Positions 28,442 through 62,536 of a DNA stretch of 64,000 nucleotides are shown in pieces. Position 1 is the stretch's first letter. Each line of letters begins with the position of its first letter. The stretch comes from Eledone cirrhosa. Its lineage: Eukaryota. The notes beneath the pieces were generated by a model, which saw only the letters and a list, made by a program, of their open reading frames with translations, ran no database searches and was not told where the DNA came from. The translations under genes and the position numbers were made by a program. The stretch spans positions 299,832,001 through 299,896,000 of the forward strand of contig OZ024741.1 in the NCBI GenBank assembly GCA_964016885.1, in the 5' to 3' direction.

Positions 28442-28637
28442 GTTGCATTTTCATCTTTTCCCCTTATACTTTCACTCGTGTAGGACACCTCGGTTATTTT
28501 TCATTTTGTAAAAAAAACCTCACTTTCTAATAATATATATATTATTAGAAAGTGATGTTTTTTTACAAAATGAAAAATAACCGAGGTGTCCTACACGAGT
28601 GAAAGTATAAGAAAAAGAATGAAATCGAAAATGCAAC
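28442..28637. repeat. Tail-to-tail palindrome of the PLE 3' end, centred on short (TA)n
   Basis: gttgcattttc...cactttctaataatatat|atattattagaaagtg...gaaaatgcaac. Confidence 0.9.
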
Positions 28638-29033
28638 TGGAGTCTTTTTCTTTTTAAATATATATATTTATTTGGTTCCTTTACCGGTTTCGCAGTTTTT
28701 CTGGTTTTCAAAAGTAGAATTGAGATGGAGGGTCTGTGGTTTTTCTCACATCTGGTTGGTCTTTGAATGTTACTTCTGTTTTATGTTTTATGGTTATGAA
28801 TGAAATTATGACTGTCAAGTGAACAAGTTCATTAAATTTTGCGCCCGCATTTGGGAATTTGTTTTGTAGCCTTTTAGAGAATTTTGTGCCAAACAACAGA
28901 TAATGGTCAAGAAAAATGGGATGGGGAGAATTGTTATGGTTCAGTGAATATGGCTGGTAGCCTGGGGTGTCAGAATTCAGACTTTCTATTGAAATAAAGA
29001 AAGTAGATATATGTATGTTTATTTGTGTGCCTT

Positions 29034-29067
<34 letters not shown>

Positions 29068-30335
29068 TGTGTGTCTGTGTGTGTATATATGTGTGTGTGT
29101 GGGAGTATGGTTAGCATGTTAAGATGGAGAGACAATATATATATATTGTTTGTGTGTGTGTGTGTAGGAAAATGATTCTATTAGTAGAAATGGGGGAGGG
29201 AGCTGTGTGTGTGTAGGAATGTTATGTGTGTGTGTGGGTATTATGTGTGTGTGTGGGAGTATGGTTAGCATTTTAAGTATATATTTTAAGTATATATTCT
29301 TTTGTGTGTGTGTAGGAAAATGATTCCGTTAGTAGAAATGGGGGGGGCGGTTATGTGTATGTGGGGTGTGCGGTTAGCATGTTAATGTGATAGACTATTA
29401 ACGTATGTTAAGGTTTATTTAGTTCTGGTTTTTATTTTCTTAATTAGAAGGTGTTAAGTGTGTATGTATGTGTCTGTTTGGATGGTTAGCATGTTATGGT
29501 GTTGACATAATGTATATTAAACTATATTTAATGCTGGTCTATATTTTTGAATAAACATATTTTCCCTATTTATTCGTATTTGTTCTGTTGTATTGTCAGA
29601 GCAAAGATAAATGGGAAGACTTGGAATTTGTCTGTCTTATTACTTGCGCATATATCTAGATGTGCACTAACAATGACAAGATCCAACCACGAGACAGATA
29701 TCACTATATCTGTCTCGTGGTTGGATCTTGTAATTGTTGGCGATGAACTGTAATTCTATTTCTGAGTGTGAGTTTAGTTCTTCCTATATAATCTTCATTG
29801 CATCCTTTACATTTGATGGCATGAAGTAGATTTTTGATGAACAAGTGAAGTGATTTTTTAGAGCAAAATTTTGTCCTGATTGAAATGTATACGTGTTGCC
29901 TTCAATGAGGTGAGTACAGGTTCCACAATTAGAGCGACCACATCTTTTGACAGTTGGTTTTGGGTTTGTGGTAGGTAATTTGGCATTGGTGAATAATGTT
30001 TTTAGTGATTTCGCTTGTCTTTCGCTTTTAATTATTTTGTGTGTTTCAAGGACTTTTTTCATTCTTGGGTCTTGTTTCAATAGTGGGATGTTCTTGTGAA
30101 TAGTGTTGTAAGCTTCCGCATTTCTCCGGTTGTGTGTTGAGATATATGATAGAATATTGGACGTACCTTGAATTTGTTTCTGTTTACGTAATTCATCAAT
30201 AGCCCTTTCTATTCCATTATTTATATACCATCATGTATTAGTAATGGTGGGTCCTGTCTTTCCTTTAATTCTTGAAGTCTTTTATTTCGCGTTTCATAAT
30301 TGGAGACAATTGTGAAAATTCTTCTTGCATCAACC
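28538..30335 (-). mobile_element. Penelope-like element (Neptune-type Cys linker), 5'-truncated, with 3' UTR and HHR
   Basis: ORF 29784-30080 DPRMKKVLETHKIIKSERQAKSLK...KRCGRSNCGTC...HFTCSS followed by frameshifted GIY-YIG sequence. The 3' UTR ends in the family A HHR tail. Confidence 0.85.
28675..28716 (-). ncRNA. Hammerhead motif, U3-A8 variant, family A copy 3 (in PLE 3' UTR)
   Basis: Reverse complement: TACTT-TTGAAAA-C CAG aaaaa CTG C-GAAA-CCGG-TA^AAGG. Confidence 0.55.
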
Positions 30336-55689: not shown

Positions 55690-57567
55690 CTGAATTTGAA
55701 GTTTCTGGTTTTCACAATAATTCACCTGTTAAGTTGTCAGTCTAGGTGACAGACTGTCTGCCTCCCTGTGTGTATGCTTACTTGTTTGTGAGTATTTTCT
55801 CATACCATTTTTTATATATATATGAGATGATATTATTAGAGACATGACCTCAGGTCAAGTGAGCGTATCTTATTACAAACATAATGCAATATACTCTACT
55901 CAAACTACATACAGCTTTACACCGCCTTGGCTTCTTAAGACATTGTAGAGTGGTTGTGTTGTTATTGAGTCATAGCATTTTAACATTAGGGGAGCCCTTC
56001 GTCCTCTCCAAGTTTGACGAAACAGAAAGCATTGAACGAAGGAAAGAAACGGTGGAAAAAATAGAGAGTGGTGATTAGACAAAGTGGAAAAAGAGATGAA
56101 GAGAAATAGTGGAAAGAAGAGCGAGGGAAAGCAACTGAGAGAAAAAGAAAACGATATAGTATAGAAAATTATAGAGAGAGTGAGAGAATGTAAGAAATAT
56201 CTGTTATATATATATATATATTTAAATTATATTAAATGAAAGCTTATATACAATATGCTTATATAGCCTCGCAATCAAAAAATAATTGTTCTTAAGGACA
56301 AACACAATTTTTTGCTATTTTTATCTGTGAACACATCACAGAGTGCCAGTAGCAGGCGAGAATGCCAAAGAGCAGTGCTTCAAGATTCATTTATCTTTCA
56401 TTTGTAGTAAATGCGCCTGGCGTAGTCCTTGGGATAGCAATGTTTTAGCACGGTGTTCCAATTCATTCAGTCGGTATATATGCTGTACCTTATTCGAAAG
56501 GTCGAATCTTGTTACTTACTATGTGGAATACTCATACAATTATGCGGTAATTTCCCGACCAGGCTTTTCCACTATTCGAACAATTGGAACATTCCTCGTC
56601 AGAAACACTGGTGGCAAACAAAAAACTTGTATAGAGATATTTTACAATCTAGCTATGAGCCTATTTCAGACGTTCGCATTTAATGTAGAATATAAAACTT
56701 ATCAAACCGATTAGATTCCATTGAAAATGTTTTCCTGAATTACTCCTATTTGTATTGGACGGGAAATGGGACTTTGTAGCGGAATTTGACGAGAAGTAAT
56801 ACATGACTCTCTGTATATGTTATTTAACTTCATTATCAGCCAATATTGTCCGATGTCAACAACTTCACTTTCTTTACTTTTTTTATTTTATTTTCTCTTC
56901 AGACAATTTTTTATTTGATACATTGCTGATTTTCATCTGACAATGCATCTGTCATGGCGATGCTTCACAGAAATTATTCTTTGTGAATACGACGCCAAAG
57001 AGTGTCTGATACACTGTCCACAAACATACGATATTGATTTCTTTCAAAAAGCTCAAGACGTTAAGTTTTATGGGAGAGTAAACTAAAATACGTTGATTCC
57101 AGTATATGACTGGCAATTATGTTATTGATACCAAAATAGTGATGGGCTTCGACTTTCTAAATAACAGTCACGTTGAATAGTTACCTTGGTACAGATCAAC
57201 GATTTCAATTACGTGGGAAGTGCGGTTATTGCCTAGTGTAGCCACCTCGGTATTTCACAGATATTATATTTTAATAATACTGAACGAAGTCAACATTCTT
57301 GTGGTTGTGTTTGTAACAGATTACCGAAAAGCAAATTGTCTGGCGCTCTCGTGATGTTGACACCTCACCGTCGTAGCCTCATCTAGTGTCTGTTATCTAT
57401 CAATCTATCTATCTATATCTATATATAATGATCATCATCATCGTGTATCGTCCATCTTCCACTCTTCCACGAGTTAGACGGTTATCTGTTATATATATAT
57501 GTATATATATATATATATATATAACCTATAACCGTCTAACCCATGCTAGCGTGGAAGAGTGGAAGAT

Positions 57568-57617
<50 letters not shown>

Positions 57618-57628
<11 letters not shown>

Positions 57629-58568
57629 GTGTATTTTGTACTACACTGTATGCTTAATTAAAAGCATTTCGAAAACCTTATGCTATTATTTTAGAGTAGT
57701 GACAGACTCACTTACTTTAATTTTCAGCAAACAGGGGAGATAAAGCTGACAAGGCCCTGTTTCGCATTTATTGATGCTTATCAAAGCCAACTACTCCTCC
57801 TGTTTGCTGAAATCATCGATGTTTGGTTCTTATAGAATTCTAGTAAATAATCAGGAACTGATTATACAGAGCGGTTGCCGGTCAAGCAGAATTTGAAAAT
57901 TAGAATTGGTGCTCTGAAATAGTTATATATATATGAATGTATATATAATGTATTTTGCAATACACTGTATACTTAATTAAAAGCATTTCGAAGACCTTAT
58001 GCTATTGTTTTAGAGTAGTGACAGACTCACTTACTTTAATTTTCAGCAAACAGGGGAGATAAAGCTGACAAGGCCGTGTTTCGCATTTCTTGATGCTTAT
58101 CAAAGCCAATTAAATTAAGTGAGTCTGTCACTACTCTAAAACAATAGCACAAGGTCTTCGAAATGTTTTAATTAAGCATACACTGTATTGCAAAATACAC
58201 TATATATACATTCATATATATATAGCTATTTCAGAGCACCAATTCTAATTTTCAATTTCTGCTAGACCGGCAACCGCTCTGTATAATCAGTTCCTGATTA
58301 TTTACTAGAATTCTATAAGAACCAAACATCCATGATTTCAGCAAACAGGAGGAGTAGTTGGCTTTGATAAGATTAAATAAATTCGAAACAGGGCCTTGTC
58401 AGCTTTATCTCCCAAGTTTGCTGAAAATTAAAGTAAGTAAATGAGTCTGTCACTACTTTAAAACAATAGCATAAGGTCTTAGAAATGCTTTTAATTAAGC
58501 ATACAGTGTATTGAAAAATACACTATATATACATTCATATATATATATAGCTATTTCAGAGCACCAAT
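57618..58568. mobile_element. Retrozyme/PLE-tail element: ~319-bp tandem plus inverted tandem, three U3-A8 HHRs
   Basis: 57618-58109 holds ~1.5 units; 58113-58568 holds reverse-complement units; long (TA)n on both sides. Confidence 0.85.
57744..57788 (-). ncRNA. Type I hammerhead ribozyme, U3-A8 variant (copies at 58063-58107 - and 58360-58404 +)
   Basis: Reverse complement: GGCT-TTGATAA-GCAT caataa ATGC-GAAA-CAGG gc CTTG-TC^AGCT. Confidence 0.72.
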
Positions 58569-58569
58569 G

Positions 58570-58659
<90 letters not shown>

Positions 58660-58811: not shown

Positions 58812-58840
58812 CTTATGAAGGGCTTTTGCCCGAAACGTCG
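58812..58840 (+). ncRNA. Degenerate minimal PLE-type hammerhead (G5U)
   Basis: CTTATGA-A-GGGC tttt GCCC-GAAA-CG-TC after a pyrimidine-rich PLE-like tail. Confidence 0.5.
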
Positions 58841-59107
58841 ACCCCACCTACACTCTTAGGCGTGAAACTAATATTAATATTTTGTACTGCCTATTCGCTT
58901 CCTCGTTCTTGATTTTTTAGTTTACTGTTTCAATTATAATATATATATTTATATACATATATATATATAGATAGATAGTGAGAGAGAGAGGGGGGGTAGG
59001 AGATAGAGAGAGTGAAGAAAGAGTAGGATAGGCTGTGGTGCTGGAACCGGGCTTGACCTATCTATCGATCTCTCTCCCCGTCCCTCTGCCCCCGTCTCTC
59101 TCTCCCT

Positions 59108-59158
<51 letters not shown>

Positions 59159-59274
59159 AACCGTAGCGTCCTAATATATATGGCTAAAAAAATAGTCGAT
59201 CCCTATAAATAATTGTTTCTACTTTTGGCACAAAGCCACCAAATATTCCAGGGCATTACTGGTACTTTGATATC

Positions 59275-59601
59275 TGACAAAATGAGATAATGTAAATGTG
59301 AAGCATATGAAGTCCGTTATTCGATTTAGTAAACATTTTAAAATGTGGTCACTTATTGTTTCTATCATACTCATTTGGAAGGCTACATCTCACGCTTCAG
59401 CTTATCCCAATATATATCTATATCTATAACTAGAGACAGGGACTTACATGTATATATATACATGTTGGGATAAGCTGAATCGTGAGATGTAGCCTTCCAA
59501 ATGAGTATGATAGAACCAATAGGTGACCACATTTTAAAATGTTTACTAAATCGAATAACGTACTTCATATGCTTCACATTTACATTACCTCATTTTGTCA
59601 G
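59275..59601. repeat. Inverted repeat, ~140-bp arms (59275-59416 / 59459-59601)
   Basis: ctgacaaaatgagataatgtaaatgtg... versus ...cacatttacattacctcattttgtcag. Confidence 0.9.
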
Positions 59602-59648
59602 CCGTTTCGACGGTTTGAGCTTTGCCGTCGGGGTCCTGAGCCTTTTCC

Positions 59649-59719
<71 letters not shown>

Positions 59720-59721
<2 letters not shown>

Positions 59722-62170
59722 ACAAGGAGAAAGAGACGATTTTATGAGGAAGAAACATTTTTTTTTTCCTTTTTTCTCTCTTTCTCTCTTTTTTGACGGT
59801 TAGAAAATGATTAAAACGAAATGTTCTACTTTGTGTGAAGTGTTAAGGTATTCGGTAATTTATTTATTATTTAACAATGGCATGTATTTATCTATTTATA
59901 TATTTAATTATTGTCTATTACCGGTTTCTGCATTTATTTGCATTATCAAATGATAATGAAATGCATTAGTATGGTGTCGCACGTGTTAAACAGAAGGTGC
60001 AGATTGAATAATGTTATATACAAACAAGGTTTAAGAAGTGAAAAGAAAAAAGAAAAAGGAAAACAAAACGTGCATACTGTGGAACGTAAAAGTCAATGTG
60101 GAAGAAAAGTTAATGTTATTTACAAGCACAGTCATTGAAGTTAAGCAGTTCAAAATGTGTTAATATCGCAAGAGTGCTTAGTTGAACCGTGGTTCCGTGA
60201 AGGAGGCAAATGGTGGACTCTGGTTTGATATGATTTCTTTTTTTAGAGAGTTAATATGCAGGGGAAGCAATTCTTGCTGGGTGATATTTAATTTATTTAA
60301 GAAAAAGGATTATGTAGGTTGTGAGGGAGGTAACTCTTGTAAATGTTTGATGGTTTGTTGCAGTTTTAGATTGGTCCGATATTTAGGGCATTGAGTACTG
60401 GTTGAAATTTATTAATGAAATGTGTTTCGTTATTGGTGCGTTGGATGAAAGTAGCGTTGTCTATGAATTTGTAAATGGGGAAAATTTTAAAGTTTGGAAG
60501 TTGGTTGAGAGCACAATTGGCGATATGTTCACTAAATACAATATTTCTGTATTCCTGTATTTTAATTTGTGATTTATGGACGGTCATACGTTGACGGGTG
60601 CTGTTTTTTGTCTGTCCTATGTAATGCTCTTGACAACCTGAGCAAGTCAAAACATAGATAAGGTTTTCAGATGCACATGTAAAGTTCTGTTTAACTGTGA
60701 AACGTTGTCCTTGTTTAAAATAGAATGTTGAACCTTCTATTAGAATTATGCATATGCCACAGTTGGGACTTCCGCAGTTTGTTACTGTAGGGTTTATTGT
60801 GAGGGTTTGTTGGATTTTGGCTTGTGTGAGGATGTTTTTTTATGGATTTGGGTTGTCTTTTGCTCTTTATGATGTTGTGTGTTTGGAGGATATTGTTCAT
60901 TCTTGGGTCTCTTTTTAGTAAAGGAATGTTCTGGAGGATGGTGTCGAATTCCTCATTGTTGAAGGGGTTGTGTGTGGAGATGTATGGTAGAGTTTTTTGT
61001 TGCGGTTCACTCCTGGGTTTGGGGTGTCTGAGTTCCTGGATGTCTAGTTTTAGGGCACGTTGGAATCCATTGATGATTAGGGATGGTGGGTAGTTTCTGC
61101 TGATAAGTGTGTTTTTTAATTCTTCTAGTCGTGTGTAACATGTGTATTTATCTGAAACTATTGTGCAGATCCTTCTGGCTATGTTGTAAGGAATTGCCAT
61201 TTTGGTGTGTTTAGGGTGGTACGAGTTGAATGGAAGGTATTGTTTGGAGTCTGTGGGTTTGTAGTATATGTCTGTTTCTATTCTGTTGCTTGTTTTCTTG
61301 ATGAGGATGTCGAGCAAAGGGAGTTGTTCACGGCTGTAATCCATTGTGAATTGTAAGTTAATGTTGAGTTCATTCAGAAGGGTTTTGAACTCAAACCGTC
61401 TATCGATACTTTCATGCCAGATGATGAAGCAGTCGTCCAGATATCTCTTCCAGTTCTTTTCTATGTGTTGGTAGAAGTCGTCGCCGTATTTGTCTAGAAC
61501 TTAGCGGTAGATAATGGTTTCCAAATATCCCATGACAAGGTTGGCGTATGAGGGGCCACTTTCGTGCCCATGGCAGTCCCAGATTTCTGTCTGTAGTATT
61601 TGGCATTGAATTCGAAGAAATTGTTTTCCAAGATGAATTTGAGTCCCTCCAACACACATTCTTTAGGGATGCGCTGTGGAAGTTCACTAGGGAAATTTTC
61701 CAACCAGAATTGTATTGCCTCTATACCTAGGTTGTGTGGGATATTGGAATATAAATTGATGATATCAAAGGTTACTAGTAGCGTATGTTCGTTATTGAGT
61801 GTTGTTGGGAGGTGGTTGAGCATGTCAGGGTCGTCCCTTATGAAGCTTTTCATATGTTTTAGGAAAGGTTTAAGCAGAATATCTAGGAGGTTGCTTAGGC
61901 AATGGGTTTCACATGTCGTGCCTGCTATTATGGGTCTTAATTTAAGGTCATCAGGAGGGGCTATATTGATGTAAACGTCTGTGGCTTGCTTGCAGGCCCT
62001 GCCTATTACTTCGCTTTTGTGTGTCTTGGGGATACCGTAGAAGAGGCTGGTTCTGCTTTTGAAATTGGTGATGTAGTTGTATTCCTTGTCTGTAAGGCCT
62101 TCTTTGTAAAGGGTTGTTAGGGATTTTATGGTTCTCATTATTTTCTGTTGTGTGTAGTATTGGGCCTTTT
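59720..62170 (-). mobile_element. Penelope-like retroelement (Neptune-type): frameshifted RT, Cys linker, GIY-YIG and 3' UTR
   Basis: FYGIPKTHK..LRPII..TFDIINLYSNIP..FEFNAKYYRQKSGTAMGTKVAP; RYLDDCFIIW; LLDILI..DIYYKPTD; CGSPNCGIC; CSGCQEHYIGQT..RMTVH. Confidence 0.93.
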
Positions 62171-62536
62171 CAAGACAACCAATCTTGCCTCAAGTGGGAC
62201 AATTCCCGTCCAGACGCATGCTAGCGTGGGAGATGGACGTTAAACGATGATGATGATGATGATGATATATATATATAGTAATAATAATAAATTTTAATAA
62301 ATATATATATATATATATATTCTCAACAAAATGCCCTCTCTAACTTAATTGGATATTGACTAGTAATAGAAACGGCCATCTGTAGCACATTTGTTGAAAT
62401 TCGAACCCGGACAGATTTTTCGAATAAAACGTTTTTTTTTCGGATCTCGGAATTTCCTGAGTGTTTATTCTTACAATTAAAAGGCAATTAATGAGAACGA
62501 TACGGACTAACATCGACGATTTTGGGGGGTAGTTTA

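What the first reader, a model, noticed from the sequence alone, without database searches (positions are those of the whole stretch)
57618..58568. U3-A8 compensatory-core hammerhead in a 319-bp tandem plus inverted array
All three copies read UUGAUAA instead of CUGAUGA. C3 and G8 form a tertiary Watson-Crick pair in the HHR core (established), so the double change keeps the pair and points to selection rather than decay (inference). In the two - strand copies stem II is GCAT/ATGC and the GUC sites are 319 nt apart. Standard CUGANGA searches would miss this family.
Basis: partly seen in the sequence, partly recalled or inferred. Interest (0 to 1): 0.8.

Follow-up and report, generated by a model that had tools for sequence, protein, structure and literature searches.

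The report
Retrozyme with U3-A8 hammerhead core
This is one damaged copy of a small non-coding repeat, likely a jumping element, that carries a hammerhead-shaped, likely self-cutting RNA motif about 2,500 times in this genome, with a U-A core pair in most copies and the usual C-G pair in a sister branch; both this element type and this swap are already in print, so it is a clean new example rather than a new kind.

Summary
Three UUGAUAA type I hammerheads lie in a 319-bp unit arranged as two head-to-head arms between (TA)n tracts, and the two minus-strand GUC sites are 319 nt apart. Only one motif is complete.

The unit belongs to a dispersed, ORF-less family. Of 2,537 motif matches in the genome, 1,862 are U3-A8, 571 are C3-G8 and 104 are other pairs. 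The two cores mark sister clades, so the covariation is real but is one switch in the sampled tree. Helices I-III also covary.

Insertions are 5'-truncated, often inverted, sit in (TA)n and carry a short tail on one arm only, the published Penelope-like (PLE) footprint. A neighbouring Neptune-like PLE also has U3-A8 and similar ends.

Folding predicts an inactive monomer and an active double hammerhead in clean tandem pairs; this locus is predicted inert.

Best reading: a non-LTR retrozyme moved by PLE enzymes. Natural U3-A8 (2011, 2014), retrozymes (2020) and their PLE link (2026 preprint) are published, and this scan noted U3-A8 PLE hammerheads before in other genomes. Cleavage, expression and the helper element are untested. 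New member of a known kind; modest interest.

The parts
57605..58112 (-). Minus-strand arm: 5'-truncated 1.6 units of the 319-bp element; its 3' end merges into (TA)n at the unit's internal TA tract (no tail)
   Evidence: L001 1476-1983, unit positions e106>319 then e1>294
58108..58574 (+). Plus-strand arm: 5'-truncated 1.45 units, joined head to head with the minus arm; ends with the tail
   Evidence: L001 1979-2445, e177>319 then e1>319
57722..57812 (-). Complete type I hammerhead, copy 1: extended helix I, core UUGAUAA (U3 57784), stem II GCAU/AUGC with a 6-nt loop, GAAA, near-palindromic helix III, GUC with C17 at 57748
58041..58112 (-). Hammerhead copy 2 (U3 58103, C17 58067); distal helix I 5' strand lost at the inversion junction; one helix III mismatch
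58336..58426 (+). Hammerhead copy 3 (U3 58364, C17 58400); stem II damaged
58108..58112 (.). Inversion junction of the two 5'-truncated arms (5-nt overlap)
58550..58574 (+). About 25-nt tail after the internal TA tract, present on this arm only
57570..57619 (.). Left (TA)n flank (likely target site)
58573..58656 (.). Right (TA)n flank (likely target site)

Best explanation
The locus is a 5'-truncated, head-to-head copy of a 319-bp ORF-less repeat that carries a type I hammerhead motif with a U3-A8 core, and is likely a non-LTR retrozyme whose tandem transcripts are predicted to self-cleave as double hammerheads into 319-nt monomers, which would be circularised and copied back into (TA)n by a Penelope-like element's enzymes. 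Shown: unit, copy number, 3/8 and helix covariation, absence of an ORF, truncation, inversion, (TA)n flanks and the one-sided tail. Predicted by folding: in a lone unit or closed circle U3/U4 pair with the 5' strand of helix III (inactive); in clean tandem pairs the palindromic helix III pairs between neighbours (12 bp) and frees both cores. Inferred: cleavage after GUC; ligation by a host ligase (by analogy to PMC7229834); two primed reverse transcriptions at a (TA)n cut, one starting at the tail end and one at the internal TA tract, which meet 5' to 5'. The template must have been a circle or an uncut multimer, because arms run through the GUC site and exceed one unit. This particular locus is probably inert.
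For: Core, helices and GUC are present. Covariation on 30 hand-picked copies: 97.1% of cells paired, 10 of 26 pairs change on both sides (3 of 4 in stem II, 2 of 5 in helix III, 4 of 12 in distal helix I, plus 3-8), 0 of 500 shuffles as high, slid controls 30-43% paired. 3/8 counts 1,862 UA, 571 CG, 47 C-nonG, 38 U-nonA, 19 purine at 3 (by subtraction) of 2,537. One strongly supported branch (100/100) separates the clades and mismatches are tips. No ORF over 48 aa in the unit; 34% GC; tandem spacing mostly 319-321. Head-to-head arms in 33 of 47 and 57 of 82 loci; of 94 junctions, 68 pair a tailed arm with a TA-ended arm, 4 pair like ends, 22 have a truncated end. PMC8557442 describes the same tandem/inverted structure, one-sided 30-40-bp tail and (TA)n bias for PLEs. 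A Neptune-like RT + GIY-YIG family here has U3-A8 in 28 of 30 loci and a tail after a TA tract in 8 of 25 listed ends, on one arm only in both two-armed loci listed. The double hammerhead is the unconstrained MFE for 12 of 15 distinct pairs in the C14 array.
Against: No RNA run was available, so expression, cleavage and circles are unseen. The double-hammerhead fold was the MFE in 0 of 12 tandem pairs outside that array, including the window's own pair (4 of the 12 still formed the inter-unit helix III). No autonomous PLE sharing this unit's sequence or tail was found in the loci held. The C14 array shows a 12-unit higher-order repeat, so long arrays also grow at the DNA level. In the 2026 preprint only 1 of 9 predicted retrozyme dimers cleaved in vitro. 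The alignment was chosen across subfamilies and its rows are related, so the shuffle test is not a probability.
Confidence: 0.78

Rival explanations
1. The unit is simply the terminal repeat (pLTR) of an autonomous PLE, and all copies seen are 5'-truncated ends of that element rather than a self-standing retrozyme.
For: Same footprint as PLEs; retrozymes are reported to be related to pLTRs; only the best 40 of 1,688 and of 2,189 DNA candidates were scored.
Against: Where arms exceed one unit they continue into another copy of the unit, up to about 30 in tandem. The 13 loci without an inverted arm share no upstream sequence. PLE coding pieces found near some loci by tblastn were, in the three cases read (L003, L005, L072), separated from the unit by (TA)n or other sequence.
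Confidence: 0.1
2. The element moves by PLE machinery on uncut tandem transcripts; the hammerhead fold is kept but U3-A8 cleaves poorly or not at all, and no circle is made.
For: Every monomer examined folds with the core partly or wholly sequestered, 1.2-8.6 kcal/mol below the active form (18 of 18). PLE minimal hammerheads cleave weakly in vitro. Arms that cross the GUC site fit a multimer as well as a circle.
Against: The catalytic core bases and GUC are invariant across subfamilies about 80% identical while only paired positions and N7 vary. U3-A8 is cited as active in vitro.
Confidence: 0.09
3. A decayed satellite spread by DNA-level duplication, in which C3U and G8A are two ordinary transitions fixed by drift in one founder.
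For: Both changes are transitions toward A+T in an AT-rich genome; one switch on the tree; higher-order repeats in the C14 array.
Against: Copies are dispersed on many contigs with fixed 3' ends and variable 5' ends; many further compensatory pairs; the U3-A8 clade has 3 times as many motif matches as the C3-G8 clade.
Confidence: 0.03

Closest known systems
Metazoan non-LTR retrozymes (Cervera and de la Pena 2020, PMC7229834; passages read)
   Same: About 300-bp low-GC tandem units with a type I hammerhead, no LTR or ORF, dimers to large multimers; dimer-dependent cleavage as in axolotl; PLEs proposed as helpers.
   Different: Core is U3-A8 in 73% of motifs; insertions are mostly short head-to-head pairs in (TA)n with a one-sided tail. 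The words 'inverted', 'microsatellite' and 'covari' do not occur in that paper's main text. Expression and circles were shown there, not here.
U3-A8 minimal hammerheads of Cercyon PLEs in Schistosoma mansoni (Cervera and De la Pena 2014, PMC4209133; parts 1-2 of 4 read)
   Same: Same core covariation (about 1,300 hits there), PLE context, palindromic helix III, dimer model, opposite-strand pairs 100-700 bp apart.
   Different: Here the motif is not minimal: helix III has 4-5 bp, helix II 4 bp with a 5-6-nt loop, and helix I is long; it sits in an ORF-less tandem unit.
Natural U3-A8 hammerheads (Perreault et al. 2011, PMC3088659; passages read)
   Same: C3-G8 to U3-A8 covariation reported in nature and cited as active in vitro.
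   Different: Scattered examples; no sister clades within one mobile family in the passages seen.
Penelope-like elements, Neptune and Hydra clades (Craig et al. [quoted passage not shown]
   Same: 5' truncation, partial tandems, inverted copy at the 5' end, one-sided tail, (TA)n targets; retrozymes proposed as PLE dependents.
   Different: No RT or endonuclease in this unit; tail about 25 nt. The preprint argues from co-occurrence and pLTR phylogeny in vertebrates, not from insertion footprints.

Membership tests
Type I hammerhead ribozyme | Core (N3)UGAN(N8)A...GAAA...UH with a 3-8 Watson-Crick pair | tested here: met
   UUGAUAA, GAAA, GUC; 2,433 of 2,537 family motifs are UA or CG
Type I hammerhead ribozyme | Three helices around the core, helix I open-ended | tested here: met
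   Helices I, II and III paired in 96-98% of cells with compensatory changes
Type I hammerhead ribozyme | Loop I-loop II tertiary contact | tested here: inconclusive
   A CAA-starting loop II and an internal loop in helix I are kept; the contact itself was not modelled
Type I hammerhead ribozyme | Self-cleavage after UH | not testable with these tools
   Needs an assay; folding only
Rfam Hammerhead_HH9 (RF02275) | Score at or above the gathering threshold (52 bits) | tested here: not met
   21.4 bits, E = 0.1; not filed under this Rfam family
Non-LTR retrozyme | 150-450-bp low-GC unit with one type I hammerhead, in tandem | tested here: met
   319-321 bp, 34% GC, up to about 30 units
Non-LTR retrozyme | No protein-coding frame or LTR structure | tested here: met
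   Longest stop-free stretch 48 aa; ends lie in (TA)n, not in LTRs
Non-LTR retrozyme | Dispersed copies with retrotransposition marks | tested here: met
   Fixed 3' ends, variable 5' ends, many contigs
Non-LTR retrozyme | Target-site duplication, when present | tested here: inconclusive
   Masked by (TA)n flanks
Non-LTR retrozyme | Expressed as linear and circular monomer RNA | not testable with these tools
   No RNA holder listed
Non-LTR retrozyme | Co-occurs with autonomous PLEs | tested here: met
   RT + GIY-YIG family with 18,963 first-look candidates, 150 scored; a second PLE type
Autonomous Penelope-like element | ORF with RT and GIY-YIG endonuclease upstream of the terminal repeat | tested here: not met
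   None in the unit or shared upstream of it
Autonomous Penelope-like element | Tandem/inverted insertions with a one-sided tail, microsatellite targets | tested here: met
   68 of 94 junctions pair a tailed with a TA-ended arm

The most novel reading that the evidence does not exclude
The C3-G8 to U3-A8 switch was a co-adaptation. The U3-A8 clade gained a perfectly palindromic helix III (ideal for double-hammerhead cleavage) that can also pair with the core's 5' side, and C3U weakens that trap by about 2.9 kcal/mol in 9 of 10 copies tested in silico. The family would then be a natural experiment in tuning a dimer-only ribozyme switch that protects the circular form. Its strict tail/no-tail head-to-head insertions would be a direct footprint of two PLE reverse transcriptases copying one circular RNA into both strands of a (TA)n cut.
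Probability: 0.22. Interest if true: 0.55.

Novelty: new member of a known kind. Interest (0 to 1): 0.3.

Why it matters
The parts are known, but this family offers two things. First, sister clades with C3-G8 and U3-A8 in almost the same scaffold, each in hundreds of copies, give a ready natural pair for asking what context lets the hammerhead core pair be swapped. Second, the insertion ends match the PLE footprint closely, which supports by a different kind of evidence the still-hypothetical claim that PLE enzymes move animal retrozymes. It also shows that hammerhead counts from CUGANGA descriptors would miss about three quarters of this family.

Tried and rejected
Rfam scan: only sub-threshold HH9 hits and spurious miRNA hits on hairpins. 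Sequencing runs: no RNA holder listed; four runs of unknown type. Laying contigs of three of them showed many variants but nothing on RNA ends. Looking for 3/8 covariation inside the window's own subfamily found none; it appeared only after a diverged relative turned up in L072. Two motifs 3.25 kb apart on C1 were checked as possible pLTRs around an ORF: the interval holds a DNA-transposase-like frame and further unit copies, no PLE ORF. A C3-A8 'variant' in L006 is an inversion junction. PLE frames beside L003 and L005 were first taken for Naiad; they have a C-terminal GIY-YIG and are better called Hydra-like (label from the description, no tree). A helper PLE was not identified: a word-7 BLAST of the unit against 70 loci and the rest of the window hit only family members, and the Neptune-like tail differs in sequence. 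A 400-kb spaced sample with a strict descriptor gave 7 C3-G8, 0 U3-A8 and 2 other motifs (plus 2 C3-G8 and 2 U3-A8 in the window; reversed control 1), so U3-A8 is not shown to dominate this genome. Przybilski and Hammann 2007 is not held; its result is taken only from Perreault's citation. The host was not identified; the word 'octopus' was an untested guess. The sequence look-up in earlier findings returned nothing. Supplements of the papers were not read and may contain U3-A8 retrozyme examples.

Full report
OBSERVATION. The sequence holds three hammerhead-like motifs reading UUGAUAA: U3 at 57784 (-), 58103 (-) and 58364 (+) (and direct reading). Each is followed by stem II, GAAA, a self-complementary 10-mer and GUC; the C17 positions are 57748, 58067 and 58400, so the minus-strand sites are 319 nt apart as stated. 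Copy 1 is complete and lies in a long hairpin (z = -6.4, 0 of 200 shuffles). Copy 2 is cut in distal helix I by the inversion junction, and copy 3 has a damaged stem II. The locus is two arms joined at their 5' ends: 58112->57605 on the minus strand and 58108->58574 on the plus strand, both ending in (TA)n. Rfam gives only a sub-threshold HH9 hit.

FAMILY. The window lies in a 3.0-Gb assembly (host not determined). A DNA search gave 1,688 candidates, of which 40 were scored, with the best full-length matches at 92-98% identity on many contigs. In the window's subfamily the exact 30-mer has 285 U3-A8 matches, 1 C3-A8, 2 U3-G8, 1 U3-U8 and no C3-G8. A relative at about 80% identity with a CUGAGGA core appeared in L072. 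A pattern spanning both gave 2,537 matches with a control of 0: 1,862 U3-A8, 571 C3-G8, 47 C3 with non-G8, 38 U3 with non-A8 and 19 with a purine at 3 by subtraction. These are motif matches, not element counts, and the pattern fixes the other core bases.

COVARIATION AND TREE. On 86 distinct copies (95 found; the C14 array cut to 2 rows) one branch with 100/100 support separates 28 rows of the C3-G8 clade from 58 of the U3-A8 clade, and the 5 mismatched copies are tips. A second tree of 64 copies built from flanks only, with more subfamilies, again needs one change for U3-A8 (SH-aLRT 94). One copy (L231) has U3-A8 with flanks close to the C3-G8 clade, so the core, N7, loop II length and helix III centre appear to have changed over a short branch. 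The trees are unrooted; that C3-G8 is ancestral is an inference from its being the usual core. On 30 copies that I picked across subfamilies, 97.1% of cells pair, and 10 of 26 pairs change on both sides: 3 of 4 in stem II, 2 of 5 in helix III, 4 of 12 in distal helix I and the 3-8 pair (16 UA, 14 CG, 0 unpaired). None of 500 shuffles reach this, and slid controls pair 30-43%. The rows are related, so this is support, not a probability.

INSERTION ANATOMY. The unit has no stop-free stretch over 48 aa and 34% GC. Copies have fixed 3' ends in (TA)n and variable 5' ends. Head-to-head arms occur in 33 of 47 loci of the window's subfamily and 57 of 82 further loci, mostly of other subfamilies. Of 94 junctions, 68 join an arm ending in the roughly 25-nt tail to an arm ending at the internal TA tract, 4 join like ends, and 22 have a truncated end. 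Craig et al. 2021 (PMC8557442, passages) describe this for PLEs: 5' truncation, partial tandems, an inverted copy at the 5' end, a 30-40-bp tail often at one end only, and (TA)n bias. A Neptune-like PLE sits 1.1 kb away in the window (GIY-YIG E = 1e-6, weak RVT_1; clade label from its CxxC linker, no tree). Its family has a U3-A8 minimal hammerhead in 28 of 30 loci and a TA tract plus tail in 8 of 25 listed ends, on one arm only in the two two-armed loci listed. Its tail differs in sequence, so it is a candidate helper, not a shown one. No ORF is shared upstream of the unit in the 13 loci lacking an inverted arm. One array of about 30 units on C14 has a 12-unit higher-order repeat, so long arrays also grow by DNA duplication.

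PREDICTED MECHANISM. In all 18 monomers folded, the active three-helix form lies 1.2-8.6 kcal/mol above the ensemble (7.0 for window copy 1), mostly because U3/U4 and helix I pair with the 5' strand of helix III. A circular monomer folds the same inactive way. For a natural tandem pair from the array, the unconstrained MFE is the double hammerhead with a 12-bp inter-unit helix III and both cores free. This held for 12 of 15 distinct array pairs but 0 of 12 pairs elsewhere, including the window's own. A transcript across the whole locus would form a hairpin of over 400 bp that buries copies 1 and 3. So the family is predicted to cleave as dimers and this locus to be inert. Arms pass through the GUC site and exceed one unit, so the template was a circle or an uncut multimer, not a cleaved linear monomer (inference). 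Exchanging 3/8 in silico deepened the inactive trap by about 2.9 kcal/mol in 9 of 10 U3-A8 copies but eased it by 2.3 in the tenth, whose helix III is the commonest in the window's subfamily (63 of the motifs counted). It eased the trap by 0.8-2.3 in 8 of 8 C3-G8 copies. These energies ignore tertiary contacts and Mg2+.

WHAT IS KNOWN. Perreault 2011 (PMC3088659, passages) states that C3 and G8 pair, covary to U3 and A8 in nature, and that such cores were shown active in vitro. Cervera and De la Pena 2014 (PMC4209133, parts 1-2 of 4) found about 1,300 U3-A8 minimal hammerheads linked to Schistosoma PLEs. Cervera and de la Pena 2020 (PMC7229834, passages) defined non-LTR retrozymes, showed circles and dimer cleavage, and named PLEs as likely helpers. 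A 2026 preprint (10.64898/2026.07.22.740005, parts 1-3 of 5) links them to pLTRs, with 1 of 9 dimers cleaving in vitro. My searches showed no paper on a U3-A8 tandem retrozyme with a C3-G8 sister clade or on one-sided tails in retrozymes; the library lacks most subscription papers and I read no supplements. Earlier notes of this scan list several U3-A8 PLE hammerheads in other genomes.

VERDICT. It is a new member of a known kind, a non-LTR retrozyme with a known core variant (confidence 0.78). The extras are a natural C3-G8/U3-A8 clade pair and a clear PLE-type insertion footprint. Interest 0.3; the co-adaptation reading has probability about 0.22 and would merit 0.55.

Noticed in passing
window 59717-62190 (-): Frameshifted Neptune-like PLE (RT, CxxC linker, GIY-YIG) with a U3-A8 minimal hammerhead at 59949; very abundant family, 28 of 30 loci U3-A8, ends in (TA)n with an optional ~30-nt tail.
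   Followed up: partly
window 2879 (+), 21727 (+), 28606-28753: A third family with a UUGAAAA minimal hammerhead in a ~190-bp element between (TA)n tracts; similar pieces, often as inverted pairs, occur in about a dozen fetched loci.
   Followed up: partly
window about 47234 and 47895 (+): Two C3-G8 hammerhead-like motifs with a long stem II, about 660 bp apart.
   Followed up: no
window 59274-59601: 150-bp inverted repeat, 95% complementary, 28 nt apart, MITE-like or an inverted PLE stub; a shorter inverted repeat lies around the TA tract at about 57455-57570.
   Followed up: no
window 58818-58845 (+) and about 59595-59640 (-): Degenerate hammerhead-like motifs: a hairpin followed by GAAAC, with a damaged 5' core.
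   Followed up: no
window 29526-30328 (-): A second, more diverged PLE fragment (31-51% identity to the Neptune-like frames).
   Followed up: no
L031 (G000:C14:23499000-23508240): About 30-unit array of this element with a short inverted arm, interleaved unit variants and a 12-unit higher-order repeat; the best candidate here for an active source locus.
   Followed up: partly
L003/L219, L005/L221, L040: PLE frames with RT and C-terminal GIY-YIG (Hydra-like) begin right after the (TA)n flanking the element in L003 and L005; L040 has nearly the same first bases after the TA tract as L005.
   Followed up: partly
L231:1412-1508 (-): Intermediate copy: U3-A8 core with flanks close to the C3-G8 clade; useful for ordering the changes.
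   Followed up: partly
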